Virus record (IMG/VR): IMGVR_UViG_3300022876_000192
Span: 1 to 47,613 of that record
Origin: a virus
Taxonomy: Duplodnaviria > Caudoviricetes
Reading direction: 5' to 3' (one strand)
DNA length: 47,613 nt
Shown: piece by piece, positions 376 through 45,120 of the stretch
How positions within the stretch are numbered: position 1 is the first letter of the stretch
How the letters are laid out: each line of letters begins with the position of its first letter
The notes under the pieces: generated by a model
Databases searched by the model: none
What the model was told of the DNA's origin: nothing
Seen by the model: the letters and a program-made list of their open reading frames with translations, nothing else
Program-made: the position numbers and the translations under genes

Positions 376-580
376 TAGCGCGATTACTAAAAGAAGCCAT
401 CACCCACGCTACCAAACGATGGGTGGCGGCCATACGCGGGTTGGTAGACCGGTCGCACTAGAACCCGGCGCCCACGAATGGGCCCCACGCATGACCACCA
501 TGAAATCCGAGTCCTGGGAAAGCGACTGAATTAGGTAGTGCGATGCATCTAGACACGAAGCGGGCTACCAAACCCGATCA
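376..580 (-). ncRNA. C4 antisense RNA-like locus (a1/b1 - antisense - a2/b2 arrangement) upstream of the DUF6124 gene
   Basis: GCTACCAAAC occurs in hairpin loops at 408-417 and 564-573, with the complement GTTGGTAG at 440-447. TAG(T/C)GCGA occurs at 376-383 and 536-543, with the complement TCGCACTA at 453-460. Confidence 0.6.
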
Positions 581-893
581 CTGGTTTTCAGTGACGTGAG
601 GACGATAGAACCTGCGGGCTAGACGCACAAGCCGGGGGATTCTGTCTTAGGTGTAGGGGGAGGCGCAAGGTGGTGTAGGCCATTAGCGGCGGCACCTAGG
701 TGTTTTTAAACAAGCATAGTGTTGTTGAAAGACTCGCCCGGGTGAACTGAAAAAAGTGCCCCCTTCCCATAAATAAATCCGTCCCCTTTTTTCAAAAAAG
801 GCTAGCCCCCTTCTATACCGGGGTCTCAGGCGTATCACCCTCACTATGTGGACAGTGAGTCTAAACAGAATCGACCTAGCCCCCCTCCCCCTA

Positions 894-34414: not shown

Positions 34415-34759
34415 TCACCCCTGCCCGCCGCTGGTTGGCGGGGCTTCACTGAGGCCCAGTCGTTTGGCAGCCCATCGTTCATACAACCCGATGGCCACAT
34501 CCGCACCGGCCATCGCCGTCAGGCAACCCAACGCGCCCGCCGTCCACAACGACATCCCGGCGGCAATCATCAACATCATCGCTGTCACCCCGCAGACAAT
34601 ACAGGCACCAGACCGAAGCGCGAGCCTGCGCAACAACGCCCAGCCCCGCGCCCCATCTTTATCTGCTCGCCACATCTCCCCCGACACGCCACCGACCAAG
34701 GCCAACACGACCACTAACCAGATCGGCATCTCTGCCAGCGCTTGTTGCTCATTCGTCAT
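34415..34759 (-). CDS. holin
   Basis: 114 aa with 3 hydrophobic segments; LALVGGVSGEMWRADK motif typical of Pseudomonas phage/pyocin holins; first late gene. Confidence 0.85.
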   Translation of the reverse strand: MTNEQQALAEMPIWLVVVLALVGGVSGEMWRADKDGARGWALLRRLALRSGACIVCGVTAMMLMIAAGMSLWTAGALGCLTAMAGADVAIGLYERWAAKRLGLSEAPPTSGGQG

Positions 34760-34867
34760 GTCTGCTCCCCATGTTTTATAGATTCGGAACACGTCCAAGT
34801 TACTTGGCTGTCACACCAGAATGTAAGAAGCTCTATCCGACGTAATCCAACGGATCGGAGCAGAGCA

Positions 34868-35215
34868 ATGAGTGTATTGATCGATGTCGTAACCACAGTG
34901 GGTGTGGTTGGCTCGCTAATGATTGGATGGGTTCAACTAACAGATCAGAAGCGATTGGAGCTGCGCACATGGGCAATCAAGCTCGCAACGATTGCCAGTG
35001 TTCTGTTGGTGGTGGGCAGCGGGATATGGGAAACGATCAAGTTCGGTAGGAGTGATGCGCCTTTGACGCGCATGGATATCTTGTGGCTCCTAGCTAACCT
35101 GTGGAACACAATATTTTATCTAGCGATTGGCGTTGCTCTTGCTGCGTACTGGTCTAGCCCCAAGGGTACGAAGGAAAAGCTGGCAGCCTTTCGAATTCCC
35201 ACCAGCGACAAATAA
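34868..35215 (+). CDS. membrane moron protein (about 3 TM helices)
   Basis: 115 aa hydrophobic ORF with GGAG SD, antisense to the late operon, followed by a terminator. Confidence 0.7.
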   Translation: MSVLIDVVTTVGVVGSLMIGWVQLTDQKRLELRTWAIKLATIASVLLVVGSGIWETIKFGRSDAPLTRMDILWLLANLWNTIFYLAIGVALAAYWSSPKGTKEKLAAFRIPTSDK

Positions 35216-35242
35216 AAAAACCGGCCGTTTGGCCGGTTTTTT
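35214..35242. terminator. bidirectional intrinsic terminator
   Basis: AAAAAAA-CCGGCC-GTTT-GGCCGG-TTTTTT. Confidence 0.8.
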
Positions 35243-35410
35243 GTGCCGCTCTCTGCGGTCGCACCTATCGAAGATGACTACTTTTTACAGGTCGATTCCG
35301 GTGGCAGCAACCCTGTTTTAATGCCACCCGGTGAATAAGTGGGTAACGCAGGGTGAACGCCTAGCGAATGTCGGCGAATACACCTCCCCGGCAATCTGTT
35401 GTTGCTGTGG

Positions 35411-35713: not shown

Positions 35714-36073
35714 TCACGCAGCCGCCCCCATCAGCACCCAGTAGATCTGCAGATGTGCATCATGCAAACGCTGGTAGTACGTGTCGCGGCCACAACCGCA
35801 GTGGGCATACCGCAGGCGCATATCCACATCGAGCGTGCAGTAATGCTCACGCACCACCGTCACCAGCTCTGGCGCGAGGTGCTTGGTCACGATCAGCTCA
35901 ATGTCCAACGAACTCTCCAGCGGCGCCCGGAAAGCACGCCGCCCCCTGATCAGTTGCCCGTTGCTCTCCATCATCATGGCAACCATATTTCCCCCAGCCA
36001 GCCCCCCTTTTGAATGTTCCGAATGAAGCTCCTGTGCCCACAACCGAAGCAGCGAATCGATCTCCTTAATCAA
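35714..36073 (-). CDS. probable late-gene regulator (Q-like antiterminator/activator with C-terminal HTH)
   Basis: IKEIDSLLRLWA...VVREHYC...CGCGRDTYYQRLHDAH; TTG start overlapping the primase stop; position before the late operon. Confidence 0.65.
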   Translation of the reverse strand: MIKEIDSLLRLWAQELHSEHSKGGLAGGNMVAMMMESNGQLIRGRRAFRAPLESSLDIELIVTKHLAPELVTVVREHYCTLDVDMRLRYAHCGCGRDTYYQRLHDAHLQIYWVLMGAAA

Positions 36074-38282
36074 AGCAAGGCTCCTCGATCGGTTCACGCT
36101 GCAACGCCGAGGCGCCGCCCCACCCTGTCGGCTTCTTATAAGCCCAGGGCCGCTGGCCGCTCTTAGCCAATGCCGGCAACCGAACACGCCGCCAGCCCAA
36201 CCGATGCATGATCGCTCCGACGCGCATCTGCTCCGGTTTGCCCCAATGCCCGAAGTCCAACTTCAACGCACTGGTGAGCACGTCACTGCCGGTGGTGGTC
36301 TCGCCGATCTGCGACTCTTCGAGCCAGGTCAGAATCGGCCCTTCCCATTCATCCACAACGAAGCGCTCGTCCTGCTCTTCACCGAACATTGCCGCCTCAT
36401 CCAGCGTCACCCACCAGAGGTCGCCCGCGTCGTAGCAGAACACCGCCTCGGCCCACAGCTGATCGCGCATCGAGCGCAATAGATCCAGATCCACCTTGGT
36501 ACACGCGACCGGCCAGTAACGCCGGTTGCCGGTGGCGTCCTTCAGGTACTCGTCTTGGTTGGTGGTACCTACGAAAACACACTGGCGTGGCACGTCCATC
36601 GTTCTGCGGCCGTAACTCTCGCGGTAAGTGTCGGTGGACGCCGAGAAGAACTGCTTGGCCTTCGTACTCTCGGCTTTGTTGAAGCTATCCAGCTCGCCCA
36701 GCTCGACGATCCACTTGCCCCGGATCGCCTGAAAGCCGTCCTTGTCGCCCAGCGCAAACGGCGTGTCCATGAACCACTCGCCGCCGAGAATGCTCATTGC
36801 GGTCGACTTACCAGCGCCCTGCGCACCTTCGAGAATCATCACCGAGTCAGCCTTGCAGCCGGGCTTCATTACCCGCGCTACAGCCGATAGCATCCAGCGC
36901 TTGCCAACCTTTGCCGAATAATCTGTCGCCTTCACGCCCATGACGTCGGTAAGCCAACTTTCAAGCCGAGGCACCTGATCCCACTGCAGCTTGCGCAGGT
37001 ACTGGCGCACAGGATGAAACGCATGGTCATGCGCAACCACACTCACCGCCTCGATCACATGCGAGGCCTTGACCCGCAGGTTGTACTGCTGCGCGAGCCA
37101 CTTCATCACCCGCACATCATCAATGTCCGCCCAATCGCCCGTGCCGCCGCCATAAGGCGCCGCGCGCAGCTTGACGATCTTCGAACTGAAGGCGCTGTAG
37201 CTGATCACGCCGGCCCAACGCTCATCGTTGGCCAGAATCAACTCGACGTTCTGCATGTGCGCAATCAGCGCGCCGCTCTCGCTACGGGCTAGTAGATCCT
37301 TCCAACCACCAGCAGCCGGCGGCTTGACCACCGCCAACACCTGCCGGCGCACCGCCTCCAAACCTTCCGCGACATGCAGATCGTTGAAGTCGGTCCACTT
37401 GGCTTCCCGCTCACTGGAAAAGATCGGCGCAACCACCTGGCCACCGACAATCAGCGCCGCGTTGTTGGCTTTCTCTTCACCGGGATTCCACGCGTCACCA
37501 TTCGGCTTCGTGGTCTTCCAGTCATCGTCTCGGCAGATGATCAGCGGGCAACCGGCGAAACGCTCGCGCATGGCCTTGCAAACCACCAGCAAATTGCCCG
37601 CATCAAACGCAACGGCCACGGTCAATGACGTGGCCATATGCAGACTTGCGCCGGTCGCGTAGCCCTCACACACCAGCACCGGCTCGCCGGGATCCGGGTG
37701 CGGCCCGATCAGATGGAAAGCACCCTCTTTGGACATGCCGTAAGGCCAATAGGATTTGTCCCGACCGGTGTCCTCTTGCTTTGTCGGGAACACCACCTGC
37801 AGGCCGACAATCTCGTCGCGCACATTGCTCATCGGCACTAGGAATGCACCGGAGCGCGGCGCATACCGAACGCCAAAACCGACAATCTGCTTACGATCCA
37901 GATAGTCGCTACGGCCCTTCTCTGGCATGCGTTTGAACATACCCGCTGCACGCTTCGCGGCACGACGTGCCGCGTTAGCCGATATCTCAGCCGCGCGGCG
38001 TTTGGCCTCTTCCTGCCGAGCGCGCATAACCTCACGCTCTTCTGGCGACATCCGCCCAGCCTTGACCTTGATCTTCTGAGACTCGCCCGAACGCCAGTCA
38101 CCGAAAGCACCGAAGATCAGCGTCTCGCCTTTCTCCGTGTGCTGCTCATGAACGACATACCAGCCGTTCTTTTCCTTGCCCTTGTCCTGCGAAGTCTTAC
38201 ACCGGGTCAGCTTGCCAAACACCAGCGGCTGCGCAGGCTCAAGACCGTAATCTGCGAATTGCCCCAACACTTCATCGAGCAT
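36066..38282 (-). CDS. primase-helicase (TOPRIM + VirE/VapE P-loop domain)
   Basis: CEGYATGAS, AFDAGNL, DDD and TDFND (TOPRIM); GAQGAGKST, YRESYGR, GTTN and TGNRRYWP (VirE). Confidence 0.9.
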   Translation of the reverse strand: MLDEVLGQFADYGLEPAQPLVFGKLTRCKTSQDKGKEKNGWYVVHEQHTEKGETLIFGAFGDWRSGESQKIKVKAGRMSPEEREVMRARQEEAKRRAAEISANAARRAAKRAAGMFKRMPEKGRSDYLDRKQIVGFGVRYAPRSGAFLVPMSNVRDEIVGLQVVFPTKQEDTGRDKSYWPYGMSKEGAFHLIGPHPDPGEPVLVCEGYATGASLHMATSLTVAVAFDAGNLLVVCKAMRERFAGCPLIICRDDDWKTTKPNGDAWNPGEEKANNAALIVGGQVVAPIFSSEREAKWTDFNDLHVAEGLEAVRRQVLAVVKPPAAGGWKDLLARSESGALIAHMQNVELILANDERWAGVISYSAFSSKIVKLRAAPYGGGTGDWADIDDVRVMKWLAQQYNLRVKASHVIEAVSVVAHDHAFHPVRQYLRKLQWDQVPRLESWLTDVMGVKATDYSAKVGKRWMLSAVARVMKPGCKADSVMILEGAQGAGKSTAMSILGGEWFMDTPFALGDKDGFQAIRGKWIVELGELDSFNKAESTKAKQFFSASTDTYRESYGRRTMDVPRQCVFVGTTNQDEYLKDATGNRRYWPVACTKVDLDLLRSMRDQLWAEAVFCYDAGDLWWVTLDEAAMFGEEQDERFVVDEWEGPILTWLEESQIGETTTGSDVLTSALKLDFGHWGKPEQMRVGAIMHRLGWRRVRLPALAKSGQRPWAYKKPTGWGGASALQREPIEEPCFD

Positions 38283-38499
38283 GGATGGCCTCCATGATCT
38301 CCTCGACCTCCTGGCAGGTCACGCATTGCGTACAGCCAGGAACAGCTAAACGCCGTCCCTCGGGGATTGGGCTGTCGCAGTTTTCACAGAATAGAAACGA
38401 ATGCGCCGCCAATGCAGGTTTAGCGGCGTTGCGTGCAGCGAGCGCCTGATCGATACGCTCTTGCACCAGGTCATTTGCAAAGTCAGCAATGTCAGCCAC
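38272..38499 (-). CDS. TraR/DksA C4-type zinc-finger protein
   Basis: GTG start VADIADFAND; CENCDSPIPEGRR.AVPGCTQCVTCQ. Confidence 0.85.
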   Translation of the reverse strand: MADIADFANDLVQERIDQALAARNAAKPALAAHSFLFCENCDSPIPEGRRLAVPGCTQCVTCQEVEEIMEAIHAR

Positions 38500-39010
38500 G
38501 ATCAACACCCCGCGTCGTCTGGTTGACATACGTGGCGCGGTTGAACAAACCCAACAGCCCTTGAATCCCTCGAAACACCTGCAGGCGAATCGCGGCCAGT
38601 TCTTCATCAGAAACCACACCGTCGCCAATGCTCTTGGCCCAGGTATCCGCCAGATCCGCAACCTGCCGGAAGTACTCGGCAATACCGGTGGTCAACGTCT
38701 CGGGCATGTCGTTGGTGTACGCCTCAGCCAGCTCCTGCCAAGTCGTGTCACCCACCAACGCATGTACCGCATCCAGAATGCGGCGATCCTTGGTCAGCTC
38801 CAGAATCTCGCCGAACTCTTGAATGTTCACCGTGTGGCTGGGGTGGGTTGGGGACAGCTTGTGCTGCAGCGTGGTCGCATTTCGGCCGGTGGTGGCTGCA
38901 ATGGCTGCGGCGCCGCCGGGGTAGTCCCGAGCGGCATGGTAAAGCGCGAGATCGAGCGGCAAAACTTCCCGCTGCGCCCGCTCAACAGAACTCAGAGCGA
39001 TACGGCTCAT
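38492..39010 (-). CDS. phage regulatory protein, CII (CP76)-like
   Basis: YPGGAAAIA...NATTLQHKLSP and DGVVSDEE motifs; downstream of cro. Confidence 0.8.
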   Translation of the reverse strand: MSRIALSSVERAQREVLPLDLALYHAARDYPGGAAAIAATTGRNATTLQHKLSPTHPSHTVNIQEFGEILELTKDRRILDAVHALVGDTTWQELAEAYTNDMPETLTTGIAEYFRQVADLADTWAKSIGDGVVSDEELAAIRLQVFRGIQGLLGLFNRATYVNQTTRGVDRG

Positions 39011-39069
39011 GGCATTAATCCTTGTAAGTTGCCAGTGCCGCGCGACATGCAGTGGTGATACATTTGCCG

Positions 39070-39337
39070 CGTGGCTTGAAAGGGCCCAAACGCCGGCTAG
39101 ATCTTCGGGATCGATACCGGCACCGTGCCGGGGCGAGCAATCCGTTGCTCACCCCTGGCGCAACAGCTGCCAAATCTGTGGTGGAAGAGGCAGCAACACC
39201 AAGGCTTCCGAGCCTTGGAAAAGCGCGATCAAGAGAGGTGGTTGCATGTGGTGTGCCCGCCTCTCTTTATCGCGACCCGACAGCGCTGTGGTGGTGCGTG
39301 CCGGGAGGAACCAGGCGGCCTTTAGGTCGCCTTTTTT
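39070..39337 (+). ncRNA. putative multi-hairpin antisense/regulatory RNA with three UGUGGUG loops
   Basis: Extended -10 TGATACATT (39056-39064); six stem-loops at 39092-39305; terminator hairpin plus T6 at 39313-39337; loops complementary to early-operon sites. Confidence 0.6.
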
Positions 39338-39341
39338 CTTA

Positions 39342-39602
39342 TCACGCAGCTGCTTTTTGCGGAGCCGAAGCGTTCAACAGCCAAGCAGCTTGGAATCCGT
39401 TGCCTTTCTGCTTCGCAGCCGTCGCCAACAGCTCGGCGTATTTGGTTTCACCTGTGTAATCCGTTCGCGGCAGGCATGCAGCCTGACGCCATTTGTTCAG
39501 TGCTTGGTAGCTTCTATTGCATACCTTCGCAGCGGCCCCGATGCCGCCTACGGCTTCAAACGCAAACGCAATCGCGCTCGGAAAATCTGCGGGGTCCAAC
39601 AT
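39342..39602 (-). CDS. cro: Cro-like HTH repressor
   Basis: AVGGIGAAAKVCNRSYQALNKW HTH; GGAGG SD; divergent from cI. Confidence 0.8.
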   Translation of the reverse strand: MLDPADFPSAIAFAFEAVGGIGAAAKVCNRSYQALNKWRQAACLPRTDYTGETKYAELLATAAKQKGNGFQAAWLLNASAPQKAAA

Positions 39603-39617
39603 GACAACCTCCATTTA

Positions 39618-39689
39618 TCAACTTGCGGTTGATGTTATAGCTCAACTGACTATTGCGCAACCTTTATGAGACTCTCAACTCATGGTTGA
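39618..39689. promoter_or_regulatory. cI/cro operator region (TCAAC-N5-GTTGA sites)
   Basis: TCAACTTGCGGTTGA (39618-39632), degenerate TCAACTGACTATTGC (39642-39656), TCAACTCATGGTTGA (39675-39689, overlapping the cI ATG). Confidence 0.75.
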
Positions 39690-40413
39690 TAAAAATTCTC
39701 TCCGCGCAGCTTTCAGCGAGCGCCTACACGAAGCACTCAACGATGCTGGCGTCCGCGCCCGTGGTCGTGGAGTGGATGTTCATCGTCAGTTGAAAAGCGT
39801 GGGCGTTGATAAAACAACCCAGGCCATCAGCAAATGGCTGAATGGTGAAGCGATGGCTGAGGCAGATAGCATGTCTGCCCTCTGCTCATGGCTTGGTGTC
39901 AGGCGGGAATGGCTTGAATACGGTGTACTGCCGAAAGAGCAGACTGGCCATAGCAACGTTCGCGCTCTAGCCCCTAGTGACTCGAGCAACGTTAGTGAGA
40001 TCAATCAGCGCTTTGGAAAGGTTCCATTGATCTCATGGGTTCAGGCTGGTGCCTGGTGCGAAGCGATCTCAAACATTGAGAACTATGACAGTGATTCTTG
40101 GTTGTCATGTCCGGTTCCGATTAGTGCCCATGGCTACGCCTTGAAGGTTCTGGGTGACTCAATGACTAATCCAGGACCCGGGCGCAGTTACCCAACAGGA
40201 TGTATTATTTTTGTGGATCCTGAAGCTGAAACAAAGACAGGGGATCGAGTAATTGCCAGAGTGCCCCGCACAAATGAAGCAACCTTCAAAATATTGGTAG
40301 AGGACGCTGGCCGGCAATTTCTTAGACCTATCAACCCGCAATACCCAATCATTGATATTACGGAAGAAACGCACATTTGTGGAAAAGTGGTTGGATCATT
40401 TATCCCGGAGTGA
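39682..40413 (+). CDS. cI: CI-type repressor (HTH + S24 autopeptidase)
   Basis: HTH TTQAISKWLNGE; VPLISWVQAG (Ala-Gly cleavage site); catalytic GDSM and TFK. Confidence 0.92.
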   Translation: MVDKNSLRAAFSERLHEALNDAGVRARGRGVDVHRQLKSVGVDKTTQAISKWLNGEAMAEADSMSALCSWLGVRREWLEYGVLPKEQTGHSNVRALAPSDSSNVSEINQRFGKVPLISWVQAGAWCEAISNIENYDSDSWLSCPVPISAHGYALKVLGDSMTNPGPGRSYPTGCIIFVDPEAETKTGDRVIARVPRTNEATFKILVEDAGRQFLRPINPQYPIIDITEETHICGKVVGSFIPE

Positions 40414-40432: not shown

Positions 40433-41554
40433 TCAACTGTGAGGAAACATATGTGAAAAATTCGACGTATTTCGAAGCTGTTGAAATTCTCTTATTTGGA
40501 AATCAGATATTTGTTCATAGTCAGCAAACGCTGTCTCTTCGTAAGCAGCTGTCCAGTGCCAAGACACTTCTAGAAAATCATTTTTATCCATATGCTTTAA
40601 TAAAGAATATTTTTCAACGTAATATTTCAAACCATACCCTTTAGGTGTCAAGCAGTTTAGGTATAAAACCTTTAATTCATCGTCAGAAATCTGCGCCCTT
40701 AATATATTGCAATATTGACGTCGCTGGAAATATTCCATACGCAATTGACGCTTGGATTTCTTACCTTTTTCACCCCCTTCGTCATTCAATTCCAACTTAA
40801 AATTATCAATCAATTTAAGTATCTGGTACATATTTCGAAAATACTGAGATAGTGATATTTTATTATCACTTTCAATTACATCCTTCACAGCCTCTTTAAG
40901 TTCTCTTAGGCCATTTGAATTTATACGCTCTTGTTCTTTTTTTCGTTCGACCCAAGAATACACGTCCGAAAATTCGATAACCGCGCTTTCTGAACCACGC
41001 AGATTAACCTTTTCAAGCACGCCATTAACAACCGATCTAAAAGTATCACTATCATCAAATCTACTTCTAGTTCGCAGCCTTTCTGCCAGTCTACTATGAA
41101 CATCTAAAAGCCTAAACAGAACTGATTCAAAGTTTTGCCGCTCAAAAACCGCAGTTTGTTTATCCTGAATACGATTTGCTATCCGTGTCTCTTCTTTAGC
41201 TTCTTTGAGCTCTTTGCTTTGCATTTTAATAGTAAAAAGTACGGCAATCAAAGCCATGAAACTTAGCAAGGGATTCAATACCCCACCAAAAAAATCTCCA
41301 ATTTGGCCCATATATTCAAGCTGAGTCACATTCGTGAATCTCAACAAAGGAAAATCAACATTAACAGAGATTTTTAACCACAAAATTAATGCGATAAAAA
41401 AAATTAGAAAGAGGCTCGTTGCCAAAAATGTTGGACCAAATCGCATCCATGCACACTTGTCAGAAAGCCCAATAAAAATTTTACGAAAGAAAATAGATAC
41501 TTTCTCGTTCCTAAGCTGTCTCCTGTACTCAGCAGCCAGTCTTTTCTCAAGCAT
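40433..41554 (-). CDS. putative phage abortive infection protein (putAbiC-like, 2 TM + helical domain)
   Basis: GQIGDFFGG..NP, FESVLFRLL..H, YFRNMYQILK, Y.NILRAQIS..EL..L..N and VEKYSLLKH motifs; low GC. Confidence 0.8.
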   Translation of the reverse strand: MLEKRLAAEYRRQLRNEKVSIFFRKIFIGLSDKCAWMRFGPTFLATSLFLIFFIALILWLKISVNVDFPLLRFTNVTQLEYMGQIGDFFGGVLNPLLSFMALIAVLFTIKMQSKELKEAKEETRIANRIQDKQTAVFERQNFESVLFRLLDVHSRLAERLRTRSRFDDSDTFRSVVNGVLEKVNLRGSESAVIEFSDVYSWVERKKEQERINSNGLRELKEAVKDVIESDNKISLSQYFRNMYQILKLIDNFKLELNDEGGEKGKKSKRQLRMEYFQRRQYCNILRAQISDDELKVLYLNCLTPKGYGLKYYVEKYSLLKHMDKNDFLEVSWHWTAAYEETAFADYEQISDFQIREFQQLRNTSNFSHMFPHS

Positions 41555-41679: not shown

Positions 41680-41719
41680 TCAACCAATGGTTGACTTATC
41701 GCAACCAACGGTTGATATT
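41680..41719 (+). promoter_or_regulatory. early (PL-like) promoter with two repressor operators
   Basis: TTGACT (41691)-17 bp-GATATT (41714); operators TCAACCAATGGTTGA (41680-41694) and GCAACCAACGGTTGA (41701-41715). Confidence 0.75.
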
Positions 41720-41754
41720 TGCCTCACTCTTCCACCACAGAGCGAGGCAACACC

Positions 41755-41931
41755 ATGCACACCACAACAACCCTGCACGTCCATCCGGCCGCAGCCACTC
41801 CCTTCCAAATCTTTGAGATCCGGCGCCTAGCCCGCGAGTACGGCTGCGCGTTCGCCATCAGCAAACCGAAGCTGGCAGCATGCACCAGTCCTGCCCCGGT
41901 CAATCCGAACGGCGGAGGGCACGCAGCATGA
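41755..41931 (+). CDS. small early hypothetical protein
   Basis: GAGG SD, MHTTTTLHVHP...GGGHAA; ATGA overlap with the next gene. Confidence 0.65.
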   Translation: MHTTTTLHVHPAAATPFQIFEIRRLAREYGCAFAISKPKLAACTSPAPVNPNGGGHAA

Positions 41932-42518
41932 TCAAGTACAAAATCGACAACCGCACCCTGCAGTTGCTCAATGCTCAGGTCAACCTGACCGAGACTTTCA
42001 ACCACGTTCTACGAACCGCGCCCAAGCGCGAGTGCCTGGCGTTTCGCCTCAAGGTTGAACGTGGCATCGCGGAAAGCACCTTCGTCGTGGAGCTGGGCAG
42101 CGAACGCCACACGCTGACCCTGCCGAACGAAAAGAAGATGCATCTCAAGCTGGCCGACTTCATCGAAGAGATCGCCAACGGCCCGTTCGATGCGAGCAAT
42201 ACAAGCGACCTGCTGCACCGCCCTCACGCCAGCCGCGAATACGGCCGCTTTGAGGTATCGGATAAGCAGCGGGTGTTCGAGCTGGTACGCACCGGCGGCG
42301 TGCTGAGCCTCGACATGGGTTTCGACTACCCGCTAATCGTCGCGCTTCATCGCACTCACTCTCGATCAGGTGTCACCACCATCCTGAGCATCGGTAACAA
42401 AAGCCCACACACCCGTTACTTCACCGTGTACGGCAGCGATGTCGAGATCTACGGCAAGGTCAGCGAATCCATTAACCACCTTGCTGCAGCGGCAACTCCA
42501 GCTGCGCACGCGGCATGA
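41928..42518 (+). CDS. early hypothetical protein
   Basis: 196 aa ORF MIKYKIDNRTLQLL..., translationally coupled to the previous gene. Confidence 0.7.
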   Translation: MIKYKIDNRTLQLLNAQVNLTETFNHVLRTAPKRECLAFRLKVERGIAESTFVVELGSERHTLTLPNEKKMHLKLADFIEEIANGPFDASNTSDLLHRPHASREYGRFEVSDKQRVFELVRTGGVLSLDMGFDYPLIVALHRTHSRSGVTTILSIGNKSPHTRYFTVYGSDVEIYGKVSESINHLAAAATPAAHAA

Positions 42519-42528
42519 GGGGCACACC

Positions 42529-42813
42529 ATGGAACGCACCCTCGCCCAAGCCGCAACCCACCTCGGTCTGACTCGGCCGAAGCTCATCGCACGCATGCGT
42601 GAAAAAGGTCTGCTTAACGAGAGGAACCTACCGGCCTATCCCAACCGTGATCGCGACTTCCTGCGAATCAAGGACGGCCAGTGGTACCACGATCAGCTCG
42701 GCATGCAGTACAGCCAGTCGACCAAGGTGAAACAACCTGGCATCCGCTGGCTGGCGGAACAGTTGGGGATCGACCTACCTGCCATACCGGCAGACAACCG
42801 TGACGTGGCCTAG
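42529..42813 (+). CDS. phage antirepressor KilAC-domain protein
   Basis: TLAQAA..LG...PKL...MREKGLL...NLP.....STKV...GIRWLA. Confidence 0.75.
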   Translation: MERTLAQAATHLGLTRPKLIARMREKGLLNERNLPAYPNRDRDFLRIKDGQWYHDQLGMQYSQSTKVKQPGIRWLAEQLGIDLPAIPADNRDVA

Positions 42814-42979
42814 GGAATACGCCCGCCAGATCATCGCCATGCGAACACGAGAGGAGCGCAACGCCGCGCTCCTCGAAGTGCCCGAACATCTGCGCGAGCT
42901 GACCAGAACGCATTGCCTGAACGCCTGGAACCACCCGGCCAGAAAACAACGCAAGGAGGCCCAACAAAGCCATGAGTAA
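42800..42979 (+). CDS. small early hypothetical protein (59 aa)
   Basis: GTG start, TWPREYARQIIAMRTREERNAALLEVPEHLR...; overlaps both neighbours. Confidence 0.55.
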   Translation: MTWPREYARQIIAMRTREERNAALLEVPEHLRELTRTHCLNAWNHPARKQRKEAQQSHE

Positions 42980-43289
42980 CACAGCACAAAACCCTCTACG
43001 CCTGCACCCGGCGCCGGAATCAGCCACCGTCGAATTGCTTTACCGCATCTTCGGCGACGTCCTGATTCCACTCGACAAAGTGCGCGAGCAGTACTTCCGC
43101 AACCTCAACGAGCAATCCTTCGTCGCCGAGATCAGCAGCGGCCGCATCCAGCTCCCCATCACCACGTTGGACACCAGCCGCAAGGCACCGAAGTACGCAC
43201 ACATCCGGCACGTCGCCTCACTGATCGACATCCGCGCCTACAAGGCCGACGAAGACATGCAGCGACAGCAGGATGACACCAACGAGTAA
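42972..43289 (+). CDS. PrtN-family (pyocin activator-like) DNA-binding protein
   Basis: LLYRIFGDVLIPLDKVREQYF and I.SGRI.LPI.....SRKA.KY.HIRHVASLID motifs. Confidence 0.8.
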   Translation: MSNTAQNPLRLHPAPESATVELLYRIFGDVLIPLDKVREQYFRNLNEQSFVAEISSGRIQLPITTLDTSRKAPKYAHIRHVASLIDIRAYKADEDMQRQQDDTNE

Positions 43290-43346
43290 CACCCAAAACC
43301 GAATGGCTGCCACCACCAGCCGAAGACTTCCCCAGGAGCACACCAC

Positions 43347-43814
43347 ATGACCACAGTTCAAATTTACGCCCTGATAGCAATCGCCATCATGATCGCCGGC
43401 GTCTATTGGCTCGCCTACCGGCACGGCTTCAGCAGCGGCCAAGCCGAGGGACATTCAGAGGGCTACAGCGATGGCTATGACGTTGGCGGCTGTGTTGGGT
43501 ATCGAGACGGCCAAGCGAGCCAGAGCGCTGATAGCGCGGAAGAAATCCGCAACTTGCAGCACACCCTTGATCAGGCGCACGACCAACGCAAGAAACTCTA
43601 CACCCACTACGAGCGCGCCTTGGCTGCCTCAAAACTTGGCGAACAGGAACGACTGACCCTACTGGAAATCGCCGAGAAACTCCGGATCGCATCCGAAACG
43701 TTTAGCGCCTTCCGCACCGGCAAAAAGCTGGAGCGCGACACCCGCACACTCCGCGACCAGGCGCTCGCCATAGCTGCCCTGCTGGAACCGGCCGAACAGG
43801 AGAACGCCGCATGA
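43347..43814 (+). CDS. membrane-anchored coiled-coil hypothetical protein
   Basis: AGGAG SD; N-terminal TM helix, GxxxG repeats, coiled coil. Confidence 0.7.
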   Translation: MTTVQIYALIAIAIMIAGVYWLAYRHGFSSGQAEGHSEGYSDGYDVGGCVGYRDGQASQSADSAEEIRNLQHTLDQAHDQRKKLYTHYERALAASKLGEQERLTLLEIAEKLRIASETFSAFRTGKKLERDTRTLRDQALAIAALLEPAEQENAA

Positions 43815-44854
43815 GCGAGATCCGTCCCCAATCCAGCACCCACTTCAACCCGGCTAACTCTCAATCAGCCATTGATGCACAAACGCGCACTCAAATCTCG
43901 GAGGAAAGCGGCATGCAAATGGACCAGCACGACACCCAAACCACGACCGCTTTGCTCCGCAAGGAAACCAGCGTCGACACACTAGAAACAAACAGTCTCT
44001 GCTGCGCAGCAGCAGGCATTATTGCTCCTTCCAGCAGCACCACCGAGGCGCTTATACCCCACGAAAAGCTGCGCGAGGCAGCGACCCCCAATGCCACGCT
44101 AAACGCTCAGAATCGCCCGCCCGCGCAGCCTGTTGAGGGGGATAAAGCTCATCATTGGGAGATGTCATCCTGCGCAAGCAGCATTGATTCTACAGCGAGC
44201 CTTTTCAGCCGCCATAGCAGCTGCCTCCATGTCATAAATGATGAGCATGGAAATGCCACCAGGCTTCCCTGCCTGAATCGACTGAACTCCATGAAGAACA
44301 TCTCTGACCGCGGCACGAAGTTCGAGCCAGCCTATAGCGGCTTCAGCTCGGGGCACTTCATTGAACTGTACTTCACGCATCAAGTAGTCACAATCGCGCA
44401 AAGAGACCTCGAACCTAGTCACCATGCGTTTGTCGCTAGAATTGTCAGTAAGGTAGCTACTGGCATTAAACGATACATCAGCGACGAAATTCGCGACGAC
44501 AAACAACTTATCCAAAAGCTCTCTCTCTGCCTGCTTCGCAGCTTTAGAAGCCCGCTGGTTCTGCGAACTGGCGACAGCAATTGCCACGATGATCGCAAGC
44601 ACAGACCCCACCGCTTGCACCCATGCGGCTGCGTCTTTCTTTGCATCAAAAGCATCAAGCAATACAAAAAGAGCCCACCCCAGTGCACCGGTAGCCAAAA
44701 ACAGCCACACCACCCAAATCGTGGCTGTGCTCATAAACGGTGGCAATTTCAAACGTTTCATTCAAGCCGGCCCCTCGCCATCAAAAGATCCGCGAGATTG
44801 CCCACTTTCATCACTCTCGTCTACGAAAGTCACATGATGGAGGTTGCGGCGTGA
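43811..44854 (+). CDS. hypothetical early ORF, open across an antisense moron
   Basis: ATGA-coupled to the upstream gene and GTGA-coupled to the downstream gene; middle part is the shadow of 44165-44761. Confidence 0.4.
   Translation: MSEIRPQSSTHFNPANSQSAIDAQTRTQISEESGMQMDQHDTQTTTALLRKETSVDTLETNSLCCAAAGIIAPSSSTTEALIPHEKLREAATPNATLNAQNRPPAQPVEGDKAHHWEMSSCASSIDSTASLFSRHSSCLHVINDEHGNATRLPCLNRLNSMKNISDRGTKFEPAYSGFSSGHFIELYFTHQVVTIAQRDLEPSHHAFVARIVSKVATGIKRYISDEIRDDKQLIQKLSLCLLRSFRSPLVLRTGDSNCHDDRKHRPHRLHPCGCVFLCIKSIKQYKKSPPQCTGSQKQPHHPNRGCAHKRWQFQTFHSSRPLAIKRSARLPTFITLVYESHMMEVAA
44165..44761 (-). CDS. membrane moron protein (2 TM + helical domain)
   Basis: IWVVWLFLATGALGWALFVLL and AAWVQAVGSVLAIIVAIAV; GAGG SD. 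Confidence 0.7.
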   Translation of the reverse strand: MKRLKLPPFMSTATIWVVWLFLATGALGWALFVLLDAFDAKKDAAAWVQAVGSVLAIIVAIAVASSQNQRASKAAKQAERELLDKLFVVANFVADVSFNASSYLTDNSSDKRMVTRFEVSLRDCDYLMREVQFNEVPRAEAAIGWLELRAAVRDVLHGVQSIQAGKPGGISMLIIYDMEAAAMAAEKARCRINAACAG

Positions 44855-45120
44855 ACACTCTTTTCCTATTGATGGCGCAGTATGATGGCCAAGCAGTCAT
44901 TCCACTGGACCGTGTGTGTGCCGATTACATGAACCTGACAGTCGAAAAATTCAAACGAAAATGTTTGGATGGAGAAATTGATATACCAATCGTTCGCCTA
45001 GGCGCAGAGAGTCAGAAGGCTGCACTAGGTATACACTTGAGAGACCTCGCAGATTACATCGATCGACAGCGCGAAAGAGCTACAGTCGAGCAAAAAAAAT
45101 TCATGGGAAGAGCCGCTTAG
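44851..45120 (+). CDS. PrtN-family protein, possible excisionase
   Basis: NTLFLLMAQYDG...IPL..VC.DY and SQKAALGIHLRDLADYID motifs; GGAGG SD; last early gene, convergent toward int. Confidence 0.85.
   Translation: MNTLFLLMAQYDGQAVIPLDRVCADYMNLTVEKFKRKCLDGEIDIPIVRLGAESQKAALGIHLRDLADYIDRQRERATVEQKKFMGRAA

What the first reader, a model, noticed from the sequence alone, without database searches (positions are those of the whole stretch)
39056..39337. Multi-loop small RNA that appears to target several translation-initiation sites of the phage's own early operon, including the antirepressor
Seen: the cro-cII gap carries a + strand extended -10 (TGATACATT, 39056), six consecutive hairpins (39092-39121, 39127-39159, 39166-39194, 39199-39218, 39224-39274, 39276-39305) and a terminator with a + strand T-tract (39313-39337). 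Three hairpins show TGTGGTG in their loops (39177, 39247, 39287). Perfect complements lie at regulatory positions of the + strand early operon. (a) 39175-39189 pairs with 41727-41741 (15 nt, leader hairpin just after the PL-like promoter). (b) 39247-39256 pairs with 41757-41766 (10 nt, first codons of the first early gene). (c) 39249-39258 pairs with 42520-42529 (10 nt, SD-to-AUG of the KilAC antirepressor). (d) 39245-39256 pairs with 43338-43349 (12 nt, SD-to-AUG of gene 43347). (e) 39289-39296 pairs with 43311-43318 (8 nt). Known: P22 sar, P1 C4 and P4 CI RNAs control antirepressor or immunity by antisense pairing. Inference: a multivalent trans-acting RNA forms a second immunity layer beside CI. 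I do not recognise it as a described family.
Basis: partly seen in the sequence, partly recalled or inferred. Interest (0 to 1): 0.88.

Follow-up and report, generated by a model that had tools for sequence, protein, structure and literature searches.

The report
Two-sided phage RNA switch element
Many Pseudomonas prophages appear to carry an undescribed small RNA gene whose loops match, and change in step with, the start regions of two of the phage's early genes (but not the antirepressor, as first proposed), which points to an RNA-level control of the choice between killing the cell and lying dormant.

Summary
All five pairings are exact, but only four survive testing. The cro–cII gap is a conserved, covarying, non-coding hairpin train (about 39071–39339, +) with no Rfam match, also present in P. 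aeruginosa and Halomonas phages. Its three GUGGUG loops each change in step with their own partner: the PL leader hairpin (a), the first codons of gene 41755 (b), and the hairpin and SD–AUG spacer of gene 43347 (e, d). The antirepressor site (c) fails: 14 of 228 relatives keep it and its net pairing energy is about zero. Added here: the promoter carries a TGGCA-N15-TGCCA repeat with the geometry of phage 186's CII site, duplicated with the gene in 16 loci and repeated at the late leader, so the RNA is probably CII-switched rather than a constant immunity layer; two non-guide hairpins fold better on the opposite (cro–cII) strand and display Rsm-like GGA loops; soil metatranscriptome contigs give a weak hint of expression. 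Best reading: a CII-driven antisense repressor of early-left genes, C4-like in logic, not in family. Strand, ends, sign of control and protein binding are unshown. The scan noted this RNA four times before on other genomes.

The parts
39010..39034 (.). Inverted repeat TGGCA-N15-TGCCA, half-site centres 20 bp apart at about -59 and -39: candidate CII-binding box
   Evidence: 253 of 255 distinct loci; retained in the second unit of 16 duplicated loci away from any cII start; 186 CII geometry -38/-58; binding inferred
39056..39064 (+). Extended -10 TGATACATT of a pE-like promoter
   Evidence: TG-n-TACATT in 251 of 255 loci
39071..39339 (+). Proposed ~269-nt non-coding RNA: seven hairpins plus terminator (5' end inferred from the -10)
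   Evidence: gap lengths spread over all three frames
39166..39194 (+). Hairpin P4 with guide loop 1 (39175-39189)
   Evidence: G-U origins 33 vs A-C 1 favour + strand; pairs with site a
39224..39274 (+). Hairpin P6 with guide loop 2 (39245-39256)
   Evidence: pairs with d and b, double co-change; stem polarity even, 65 vs 71
39276..39305 (+). Hairpin P7 with guide loop 3 (39288-39294)
   Evidence: G-U 25 vs A-C 12; co-change with e
39313..39339 (+). Intrinsic terminator (stem 39313-39332, T tract)
   Evidence: 7 T in the 8 bases after the stem in 242 of 245 gaps; absent in three P. aeruginosa phages
39125..39161 (-). Hairpin P3; on the cro-cII strand its loop (39139-39146) reads ACGGAU, Rsm-like
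   Evidence: A-C origins 68 vs G-U 17 favour - strand; GGA in 244, ANGGA in 242 of 245; Rsm binding inferred
39199..39218 (-). Hairpin P5; on the cro-cII strand its loop (39205-39212) carries GGA
   Evidence: A-C 32 vs G-U 13; GGA in 243, ANGGA in 125 of 245, the window itself lacks the A
41691..41719 (+). PL-like promoter
   Evidence: position conserved before the leader
41722..41747 (+). Target a: leader hairpin, loop UCCACCAC, SD GAGG of gene 41755 in its 3' arm (paired stretch 41727-41741)
   Evidence: motif in 221 of 227 loci
41757..41766 (+). Target b: codons 1-4 of the 58-aa first early gene (41755-41931, function unknown)
   Evidence: PHROG unknown
42520..42529 (+). Site c before KilAC antirepressor (42529-42813): rejected as a conserved target
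   Evidence: 14 of 228; 117 different spacers in 227 loci; net -0.1 kcal/mol; PF03374
43305..43321 (+). Target e: hairpin with loop CCACCAC (43310-43316) upstream of gene 43347
43338..43349 (+). Target d: SD-to-AUG spacer of the 155-aa gene 43347-43814 (function unknown)
   Evidence: 12 nt or more in 166 of 227 loci; 16 spacers in 186 loci, 158 identical
35302..35326 (-). Second TGGCA-N15-TGCCA box at the late-operon leader
   Evidence: only other match in the window, 0.18 expected; 241 of 261 loci; also P. aeruginosa and Halomonas phages
38492..39010 (-). cII, phage 186 CII family
   Evidence: PF06892 E 5.8e-21; phrog_101
39342..39602 (-). cro-like repressor
   Evidence: phrog_35 E 1.2e-5
39682..40413 (+). 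cI repressor (S24 peptidase)

Best explanation
CII, made from the cro-cII early transcript, binds the inverted repeat at 39010-39034 and switches on a pE-like promoter (inferred). The product is a ~270-nt structured RNA that mostly stops at 39339 (inferred; some read-through could reach cI). Its three GUGGUG loops start pairing with CCACCAC stretches on the PL mRNA: loop 1 with the leader hairpin of gene 41755, loop 2 with the start regions of genes 41755 and 43347, loop 3 with the hairpin upstream of 43347 (complementarity and co-change shown; pairing in the cell inferred). Covering the start codon and SD spacer blocks translation, and possibly causes polarity on the genes behind, so KilAC would be hit only indirectly (inferred). 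The net effect favours or stabilises lysogeny; CII at the twin box would also act on the late promoter.
For: Structure: 51 of 93 pairs with double changes vs 22.2 in shuffles, 92% of cells paired vs 43-46% when slid (58 representatives). Co-change: loop-2 double variant goes with the matching double change at d in 8 of 8 loci and at b in 6 of 8, against 0 of 177 and 0 of 215 loci with the common loop; loop-3 variant with the matching e in 12 of 14 that have the site vs 4 of 166; loop-1 variant with the matching a in 9 of 20 vs 0 of 207. Distant phages re-match with changed flanks: 15 and 12 nt in two P. aeruginosa phages, 13 nt in Halomonas H4907, 12 nt in L158, 16 and 11 nt in L155. Each loop follows its own partner, not a common consensus. 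Kept across different cI/cro modules (92, 53, 81 loci). Best duplex among 46 start regions: loop 1 to 41755 (-29.5 vs -16.6), loop 2 to 43347 (-25.1 vs -19.6). + strand polarity of the guide hairpins P4, P7 and of the T tract. Promoter box. Weak hint: deepest contigs lie on the element in 3 of 4 RNA runs.
Against: No strand, start, end or level of RNA shown: one search is contigs only, and run X5 has no peak. Co-changes rest on few events (1-3 changes on the cII tree, 2-5 on early-gene trees; loop-1 and loop-3 variants share mostly one clade). 11 of 20 loop-1 variants have other bases at a; 9 of 23 loop-3 variants and 34 common-loop loci have no site found. Loop 3's ranking does not discriminate (-21.1 vs -20.8). 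At a, pairing could open the hairpin that hides the SD, so the sign may be activation. The binder of the box is not identified; PA0613-like or PrtN-like proteins are alternatives. P3 and P5 favour the other strand and P6 is even. P. aeruginosa homologues lack the T tract.
Confidence: 0.62

Rival explanations
1. Same RNA and pairings, other role: it activates (opening the leader hairpin that hides the SD of 41755) or is a lytic-phase timer, switched on together with the late promoter by the box-binding protein to shut early genes.
For: SD GAGG sits in the 3' arm of hairpin a; the same box stands at the late leader in 241 of 261 loci, oriented towards the lysis genes.
Against: Loop 2 covers the AUG and SD spacer at d and the first codons at b, which fits blocking; the CII family promotes lysogeny in 186.
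Confidence: 0.15
2. One reading: a constitutive RNA in the lysogen forming a second immunity layer that silences the antirepressor directly.
For: Extended -10 can work without an activator (established knowledge); RNA contigs in soil communities; kept across cI types.
Against: Site c not conserved and not favourable; conserved CII-type box.
Confidence: 0.07
3. The + transcript is mainly the leader of the cI establishment message and a cis-antisense against the cro-cII mRNA (OOP/pE-like); trans matches are secondary.
For: Promoter sits where pE would; P. aeruginosa homologues have no T tract; the RNA is fully complementary to the cII leader.
Against: Does not explain loop-specific co-change with sites 2.4-4.3 kb away; terminator in 242 of 245 gaps.
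Confidence: 0.08
4. CCACCAC hairpins are cis sites for one protein (nut/put-like) on both early transcripts, read on the - strand in the gap; no RNA-RNA pairing.
For: The - strand folds as well (z = -5.48) and then shows the same CCACCAC loops as the PL leader; P3 and P5 favour the - strand.
Against: The hairpins with these loops favour + (P4 33 vs 1; P7 25 vs 12); a single protein would change all sites together, whereas each loop tracks a different partner; the unit duplicated is box + promoter + hairpins + terminator.
Confidence: 0.06
5. Chance matches in a C/A-rich operon.
For: True for c and for e taken alone.
Against: 0 of 1000 shuffles for the 15-nt or the double 12-nt match; conservation and co-change.
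Confidence: 0.02

Closest known systems
P1/P7 C4 antisense RNA (Rfam RF01695)
   Same: Structured phage RNA using loop sequences to pair in trans near ribosome-binding sites of its own phage mRNA (PMC12197685, passages); two-point contact of loops 2+3 on e+d resembles its paired targets (recalled).
   Different: No RF01695 match although a true C4 is found elsewhere in this window; ~270-nt linear train against 77 nt; three (2 to 6 in relatives) near-identical loops; antirepressor start is not a conserved target; lies between cro and cII behind a CII-type box.
P4 CI RNA
   Same: Antisense loops pairing with two sites to stop early expression (PMC4825925, passage).
   Different: CI is processed from the transcript it controls, with targets on either side; here targets lie on another transcription unit 2.4-4.3 kb away; termination not tested.
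P22 sar and lambda OOP/aQ RNAs
   Same: Phage antisense RNAs acting on the lysis-lysogeny switch; this RNA is also antisense to the cro-cII message.
   Different: Those overlap their target in the DNA (recalled for sar); this one overlaps the cII leader, not its 3' end, and has distant partners.
Phage 186 pE / CII
   Same: CII family (PF06892); inverted repeat two turns apart at about -38/-58; promoter convergent with the early promoter.
   Different: Here a structured RNA and a terminator lie between the promoter and cI; a second box is at the late leader; binding not shown.
CsrA/Rsm binding hairpins
   Same: GGA in a hairpin loop, ANGGA context, consensus from PMC6849547 (passages).
   Different: 132 and 198 nt upstream of the cII start; P5 lacks the first A in about half of loci; binding not shown.

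Membership tests
C4 antisense RNA (RF01695) | Covariance-model score at or above gathering | tested here: not met
   No hit in the gap at gathering or at E up to 10, none in L401, L402, L157, L155; positive control C4 at 419-505 found
C4 antisense RNA (RF01695) | Short cloverleaf closed by one long stem | tested here: not met
   Linear train of local hairpins; C4 consensus seen
C4 antisense RNA (RF01695) | Targets at the antirepressor message's ribosome-binding region | tested here: not met
   Site c in 14 of 228 loci, net -0.1 kcal/mol
C4 antisense RNA (RF01695) | Loop-exposed sequences pairing in trans with initiation regions | tested here: met
   By complementarity and co-change only
P4 CI RNA | Encoded within the controlled transcript with targets on both sides | tested here: not met
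   Targets at 41727-43349, beyond cro, cI and a cargo gene
P4 CI RNA | Causes premature transcription termination after processing | not testable with these tools
   Needs transcript mapping
sar / OOP cis-antisense RNAs | Overlaps the target's RBS (sar) or cII 3' end (OOP) in the DNA | tested here: not met
   RNA 39071-39339 overlaps neither the cII RBS (about 39015-39025) nor its 3' end (38492), nor kilAC
186-type CII-activated pE | Adjacent CII of the CP76 family | tested here: met
   PF06892 E 5.8e-21; weak match to 186-type CII chains 6vmh/6vli, E 0.15
186-type CII-activated pE | Inverted repeat two turns apart centred near -38 and -58 | tested here: met
   Centres 39032 and 39012, -39/-59 for an assumed start at 39071
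186-type CII-activated pE | CII binds and activates | not testable with these tools
   Attempt to separate CII from the PA0613-like protein as binder failed
186-type CII-activated pE | Transcribes cI | tested here: inconclusive
   Terminator before cro in 242 of 245 gaps, absent in P. aeruginosa phages
Rsm/CsrA target leader | ANGGA in a hairpin loop on the mRNA strand | tested here: inconclusive
   P3 242 of 245, P5 125 of 245; - strand polarity; absent in Halomonas H4907
Rsm/CsrA target leader | Protein binding and translational effect | not testable with these tools
   No paper found
nut/put-like cis antitermination sites | One shared site on the sense strand of both early transcripts | tested here: not met
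   Guide hairpins favour the antisense strand; sites change loop by loop

The most novel reading that the evidence does not exclude
The 270-bp gap is a two-sided switch: read one way it is a CII-induced, multi-guide antisense RNA that silences the opposite early operon; read the other way it is a cII leader with two Rsm-binding hairpins that lets the host Gac/Rsm cell-density system set CII output; the two strands annihilate each other, and the same CII box controls the late promoter. The RNA is modular (2 to 6 guide loops, whole-unit duplication), so targets can be re-aimed loop by loop.
Probability: 0.2. Interest if true: 0.85.

Novelty: new variant of a known kind. Interest (0 to 1): 0.63.

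Why it matters
It would add an RNA arm to the lysis-lysogeny decision of a very common family of Pseudomonas prophages (and at least one Halomonas phage): CII acting through a trans antisense RNA on the early-left operon, something not described for lambda or 186 as far as I know (recalled). Natural compensatory variants and cultured phages (Haddon, vB_Pae_U5, LPPA36, H4907) make it directly testable, and the GGA hairpins offer a concrete route by which a host global regulator could steer lysogeny. It also flags two unknown genes (41755, 43347) as the ones the phage takes most care to control.

Tried and rejected
KilAC site c: rejected. Rfam at gathering and at E up to 10: nothing credible. 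A small ORF in the gap: lengths fall in all frames, 90/63/102; the CDS annotated there in phage Haddon is likely spurious. Pattern scan of viral contigs: 120 stretches, only 36 next to a cII homologue; the other 84 were not examined further. An apparent re-aiming of loop 2 in L158's first copy to the SD of the first gene was not a perfect match and is not used. A CII box upstream of int: none seen by eye in 18 loci. Tailocin copies of the PA0613-like gene, to test who binds the box: none in 5 genomes, only 6 matches that look like prophage copies. Ralstonia phage Dina has a CII homologue but no such element by eye. Late-leader CACCAC as a further target: in 167 of 239 relatives, absent at that spot in the window, no clean co-change; left open. 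Function of genes 41755 and 43347: no family (the FliH matches are far below cut-off). Fisher tests are not quoted: loci are related and two tables had slightly wrong totals. Relatives by genus could not be drawn for a virus record.

Full report
Setting. The window is a virus record of a Pseudomonas-type temperate phage. cII (38492-39010, -, 186 CII family PF06892), cro (39342-39602, -) and cI (39682-40413, +) frame the gap; the early-left operon starts behind a PL-like promoter at 41691-41719 and holds a 58-aa unknown gene (41755), a 196-aa unknown gene, a KilAC antirepressor (42529), a PrtN-family gene (42972) and a 155-aa unknown gene (43347).

Observation. All five pairings are exact. The gap folds far better than shuffles on either strand (z -5.68 on +; -5.48 on -). 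In 1000 shuffles against 7 early start regions no 15-nt match and no pair of 12-nt matches arose, but a 10-nt match to some start region arose 129 times, to KilAC 37 times, and an 8-nt match in 159 of 200. So a and d are beyond chance, c and e are not by themselves. No Rfam family matches the gap or four distant loci, while a true C4 RNA is found at 419-505.

Relatives. cII-based and pattern searches gave 405 loci, 321 with a cII homologue. Of 304 with a readable gap (window included), 280 have one unit, 16 a tandem duplication and 8 were set apart (three P. aeruginosa phages, one Halomonas, one Ralstonia, L222, L277, L291); 255 single-unit loci are distinct. On 58 representatives, the window's structure has 51 of 93 pairs with changes on both sides (22.2 in shuffles) and 92% of cells paired against 43-46% when slid (the structure came from the window and kin inflate such counts). 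Loop seeds are 98-99% conserved while stems P2 and P6 are 74-75%. Gap lengths fall in all three frames, so it is non-coding. It persists beside at least three classes of cI (92, 53, 81 loci).

Which targets are real. Loop 1 and the leader region match over 9 nt or more in 212 of 227 loci, loop 2 and d over 12 or more in 166 of 227, loop 2 and c over 10 in only 14 of 228. The 8 bases before the KilAC start take 117 forms in 227 loci; those before 43347 take 16 forms in 186, 158 identical. With opening costs, net energies are -14.8 (a), -10.8 (b), -11.7 (d), -9.0 (e in the register 39288-39294/43310-43316), -3.7 (e as first read) and -0.1 kcal/mol (c). Among 46 start regions, loop 1 ranks 41755 first (-29.5, next -16.6), loop 2 ranks 43347 first (-25.1, next -19.6), loop 3 barely discriminates; the 42529 start was by construction not in that set.

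Co-change. A loop-2 variant with two transversions is matched by the same two complementary changes at d in 8 of 8 loci (0 of 177 common-loop loci with a site; 34 had no site found) and by a matching codon-2 change at b in 6 of 8 (0 of 215); by my arithmetic two changes falling on the matching two of eight positions with the right bases has odds near 0.004. The loop-3 variant has the matching e in 12 of 23 (2 unmatched, 9 no site) against 4 of 198, and those 4 still pair by G-U. The loop-1 variant has the matching a in 9 of 20, other bases in 11, the common form in none, against 0 of 207. These rest on few events: 1-3 changes on the cII tree, 2-5 on two early-gene trees of 214 loci, and the loop-1 and loop-3 variants largely share a clade. 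Distant phages add separate cases in which flanks changed on both sides: 15 nt (leader) and 12 nt (e hairpin) in P. aeruginosa phages Haddon and U5, 13 nt in Halomonas H4907, 12 nt at b in L158, 16 and 11 nt in L155. Each loop tracks its own partner, which base pairing predicts and a shared protein site does not.

Strand. Counting origins of G-U against A-C on a tree of 245 distinct gaps (L155 and L359 dropped as misaligned): P1 8/0, P2 14/8, P4 33/1, P7 25/12, terminator 5/2 favour +; P6 65/71 is even; P3 17/68 and P5 13/32 favour the - strand, which is the cro-cII message. On that strand the P3 and P5 loops carry GGA in 244 and 243 of 245, in ANGGA context in 242 and 125, like the Rsm consensus given in PMC6849547 (passages). 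GGA is kept with a free preceding base in distant Pseudomonas groups but not in Halomonas H4907. Rsm binding is a hypothesis; the window's own P5 lacks the A.

Promoter. TGGCA-N14/15-TGCCA stands before the extended -10 in 253 of 255 loci; half-site centres are 20 bp apart, at -59 and -39 for a start at 39071. 186 CII binds an inverted repeat two turns apart at -38 and -58 of pE (PMC6593788, passages). One half overlaps the cII start, but in 16 loci the whole unit (box, -10, three-loop RNA, end hairpin) is duplicated and the second box, with no cII start beside it, keeps both halves while its spacer drifts (6 duplicated loci read in full). The pattern occurs twice in the window (0.18 expected): the second is at the late leader, 35302-35326, present in 241 of 261 loci and in the P. 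aeruginosa and Halomonas phages, the last with a third box at the far end of the early-left operon. Which protein binds is not shown (one search did not settle it).

Expression. Sixteen of 24 listed runs are on record as RNA; 4 were laid. In X1, whose contigs are identical to the window, depth at 39188 is 932 against 22-39 on the flanking contigs; X8 22323 against 219 and X13 7288 against 165 on the cro-cI side (these hold relatives, and their cII-side contigs are also deep); X5 has no peak. These are contigs, chosen because they hold this stretch, and cannot show strand, ends or level: a weak hint only.

Mechanism. Shown: conserved structure, loop-specific complementarity and co-change with a, b, d, e; + strand polarity of guide hairpins and terminator; a conserved palindrome with CII geometry at two promoters. 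Inferred: CII activation, transcription, pairing in the cell, repression, a push towards lysogeny (0.62). Loops 2 and 3 meet d and e in the correct antiparallel order, 31 nt apart; a and b lie 28 nt apart in the same layout. The sign at a is open because that hairpin hides the SD. Rivals: activation or lytic timing (0.15), pE leader/cis-antisense (0.08), constitutive antirepressor immunity (0.07), protein sites (0.06), chance (0.02).

Known systems. It works like C4, CI and sar (PMC12197685 and PMC4825925, passages) but fails their defining tests. Searches (listings and abstract starts only) showed no description of this RNA; 23, 65, 73 and 74 served background. The library lacks most subscription papers and I opened no supplements, where Pseudomonas sRNA catalogues may list it without a function. 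Four earlier notes of this scan reached the same core reading on other genomes; I had that reading before and tested it here; a word search found no note on the CII box or Rsm.

Verdict. A real, widespread, undescribed phage RNA element; a new variant of the antisense-control kind; the antirepressor claim dropped; interest 0.63.

Noticed in passing
window 419-505 and 557-608 (-): A true C4 RNA (79.8 bits) with a c4-a1b1 target element upstream, in front of a short ORF (1-363, -), far from the immunity region.
   Followed up: no
window 40433-41554 (-): AT-rich putative abortive-infection gene (PF16872) in a slot between cI and PL whose length varies widely in relatives.
   Followed up: no
window 42972-43289 and 44791-45120 (+): Two PrtN-family (PF11112, PHROG excisionase) genes in the early-left operon; with the DksA-type zinc finger and a PA0613-family gene (35714-36076) the gene set recalls the pyocin control locus.
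   Followed up: partly
window 34742-35260: An inserted + strand gene with a two-way terminator replaces the CACCAC-rich late-leader stretch seen in 167 of 239 relatives.
   Followed up: partly
L157, L158, L284, L306, L313, L328 and 10 more: Tandem duplication of the whole promoter-RNA unit; L284 and L296 also repeat the loop-2/loop-3 part inside the first copy; first-copy loop 1 has no 9-nt partner in the five duplicated loci tested.
   Followed up: partly
L402 (Halomonas phage H4907), about 6.9 kb from cII: Two-loop version of the RNA with a T-tract terminator, and a third CII-type box at the far end of the early-left operon, perhaps an integrase promoter.
   Followed up: partly
L277 1-711: A divergent gap with five or six GUGG loops next to a cII homologue.
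   Followed up: no
   Followed up: no
window 39015-39026 (-): The cII ribosome-binding region reads UACAAGGAUUAA, close to the CsrA SELEX consensus, in 74 of 245 gaps; elsewhere only the GGA is kept, which an SD explains as well.
   Followed up: partly
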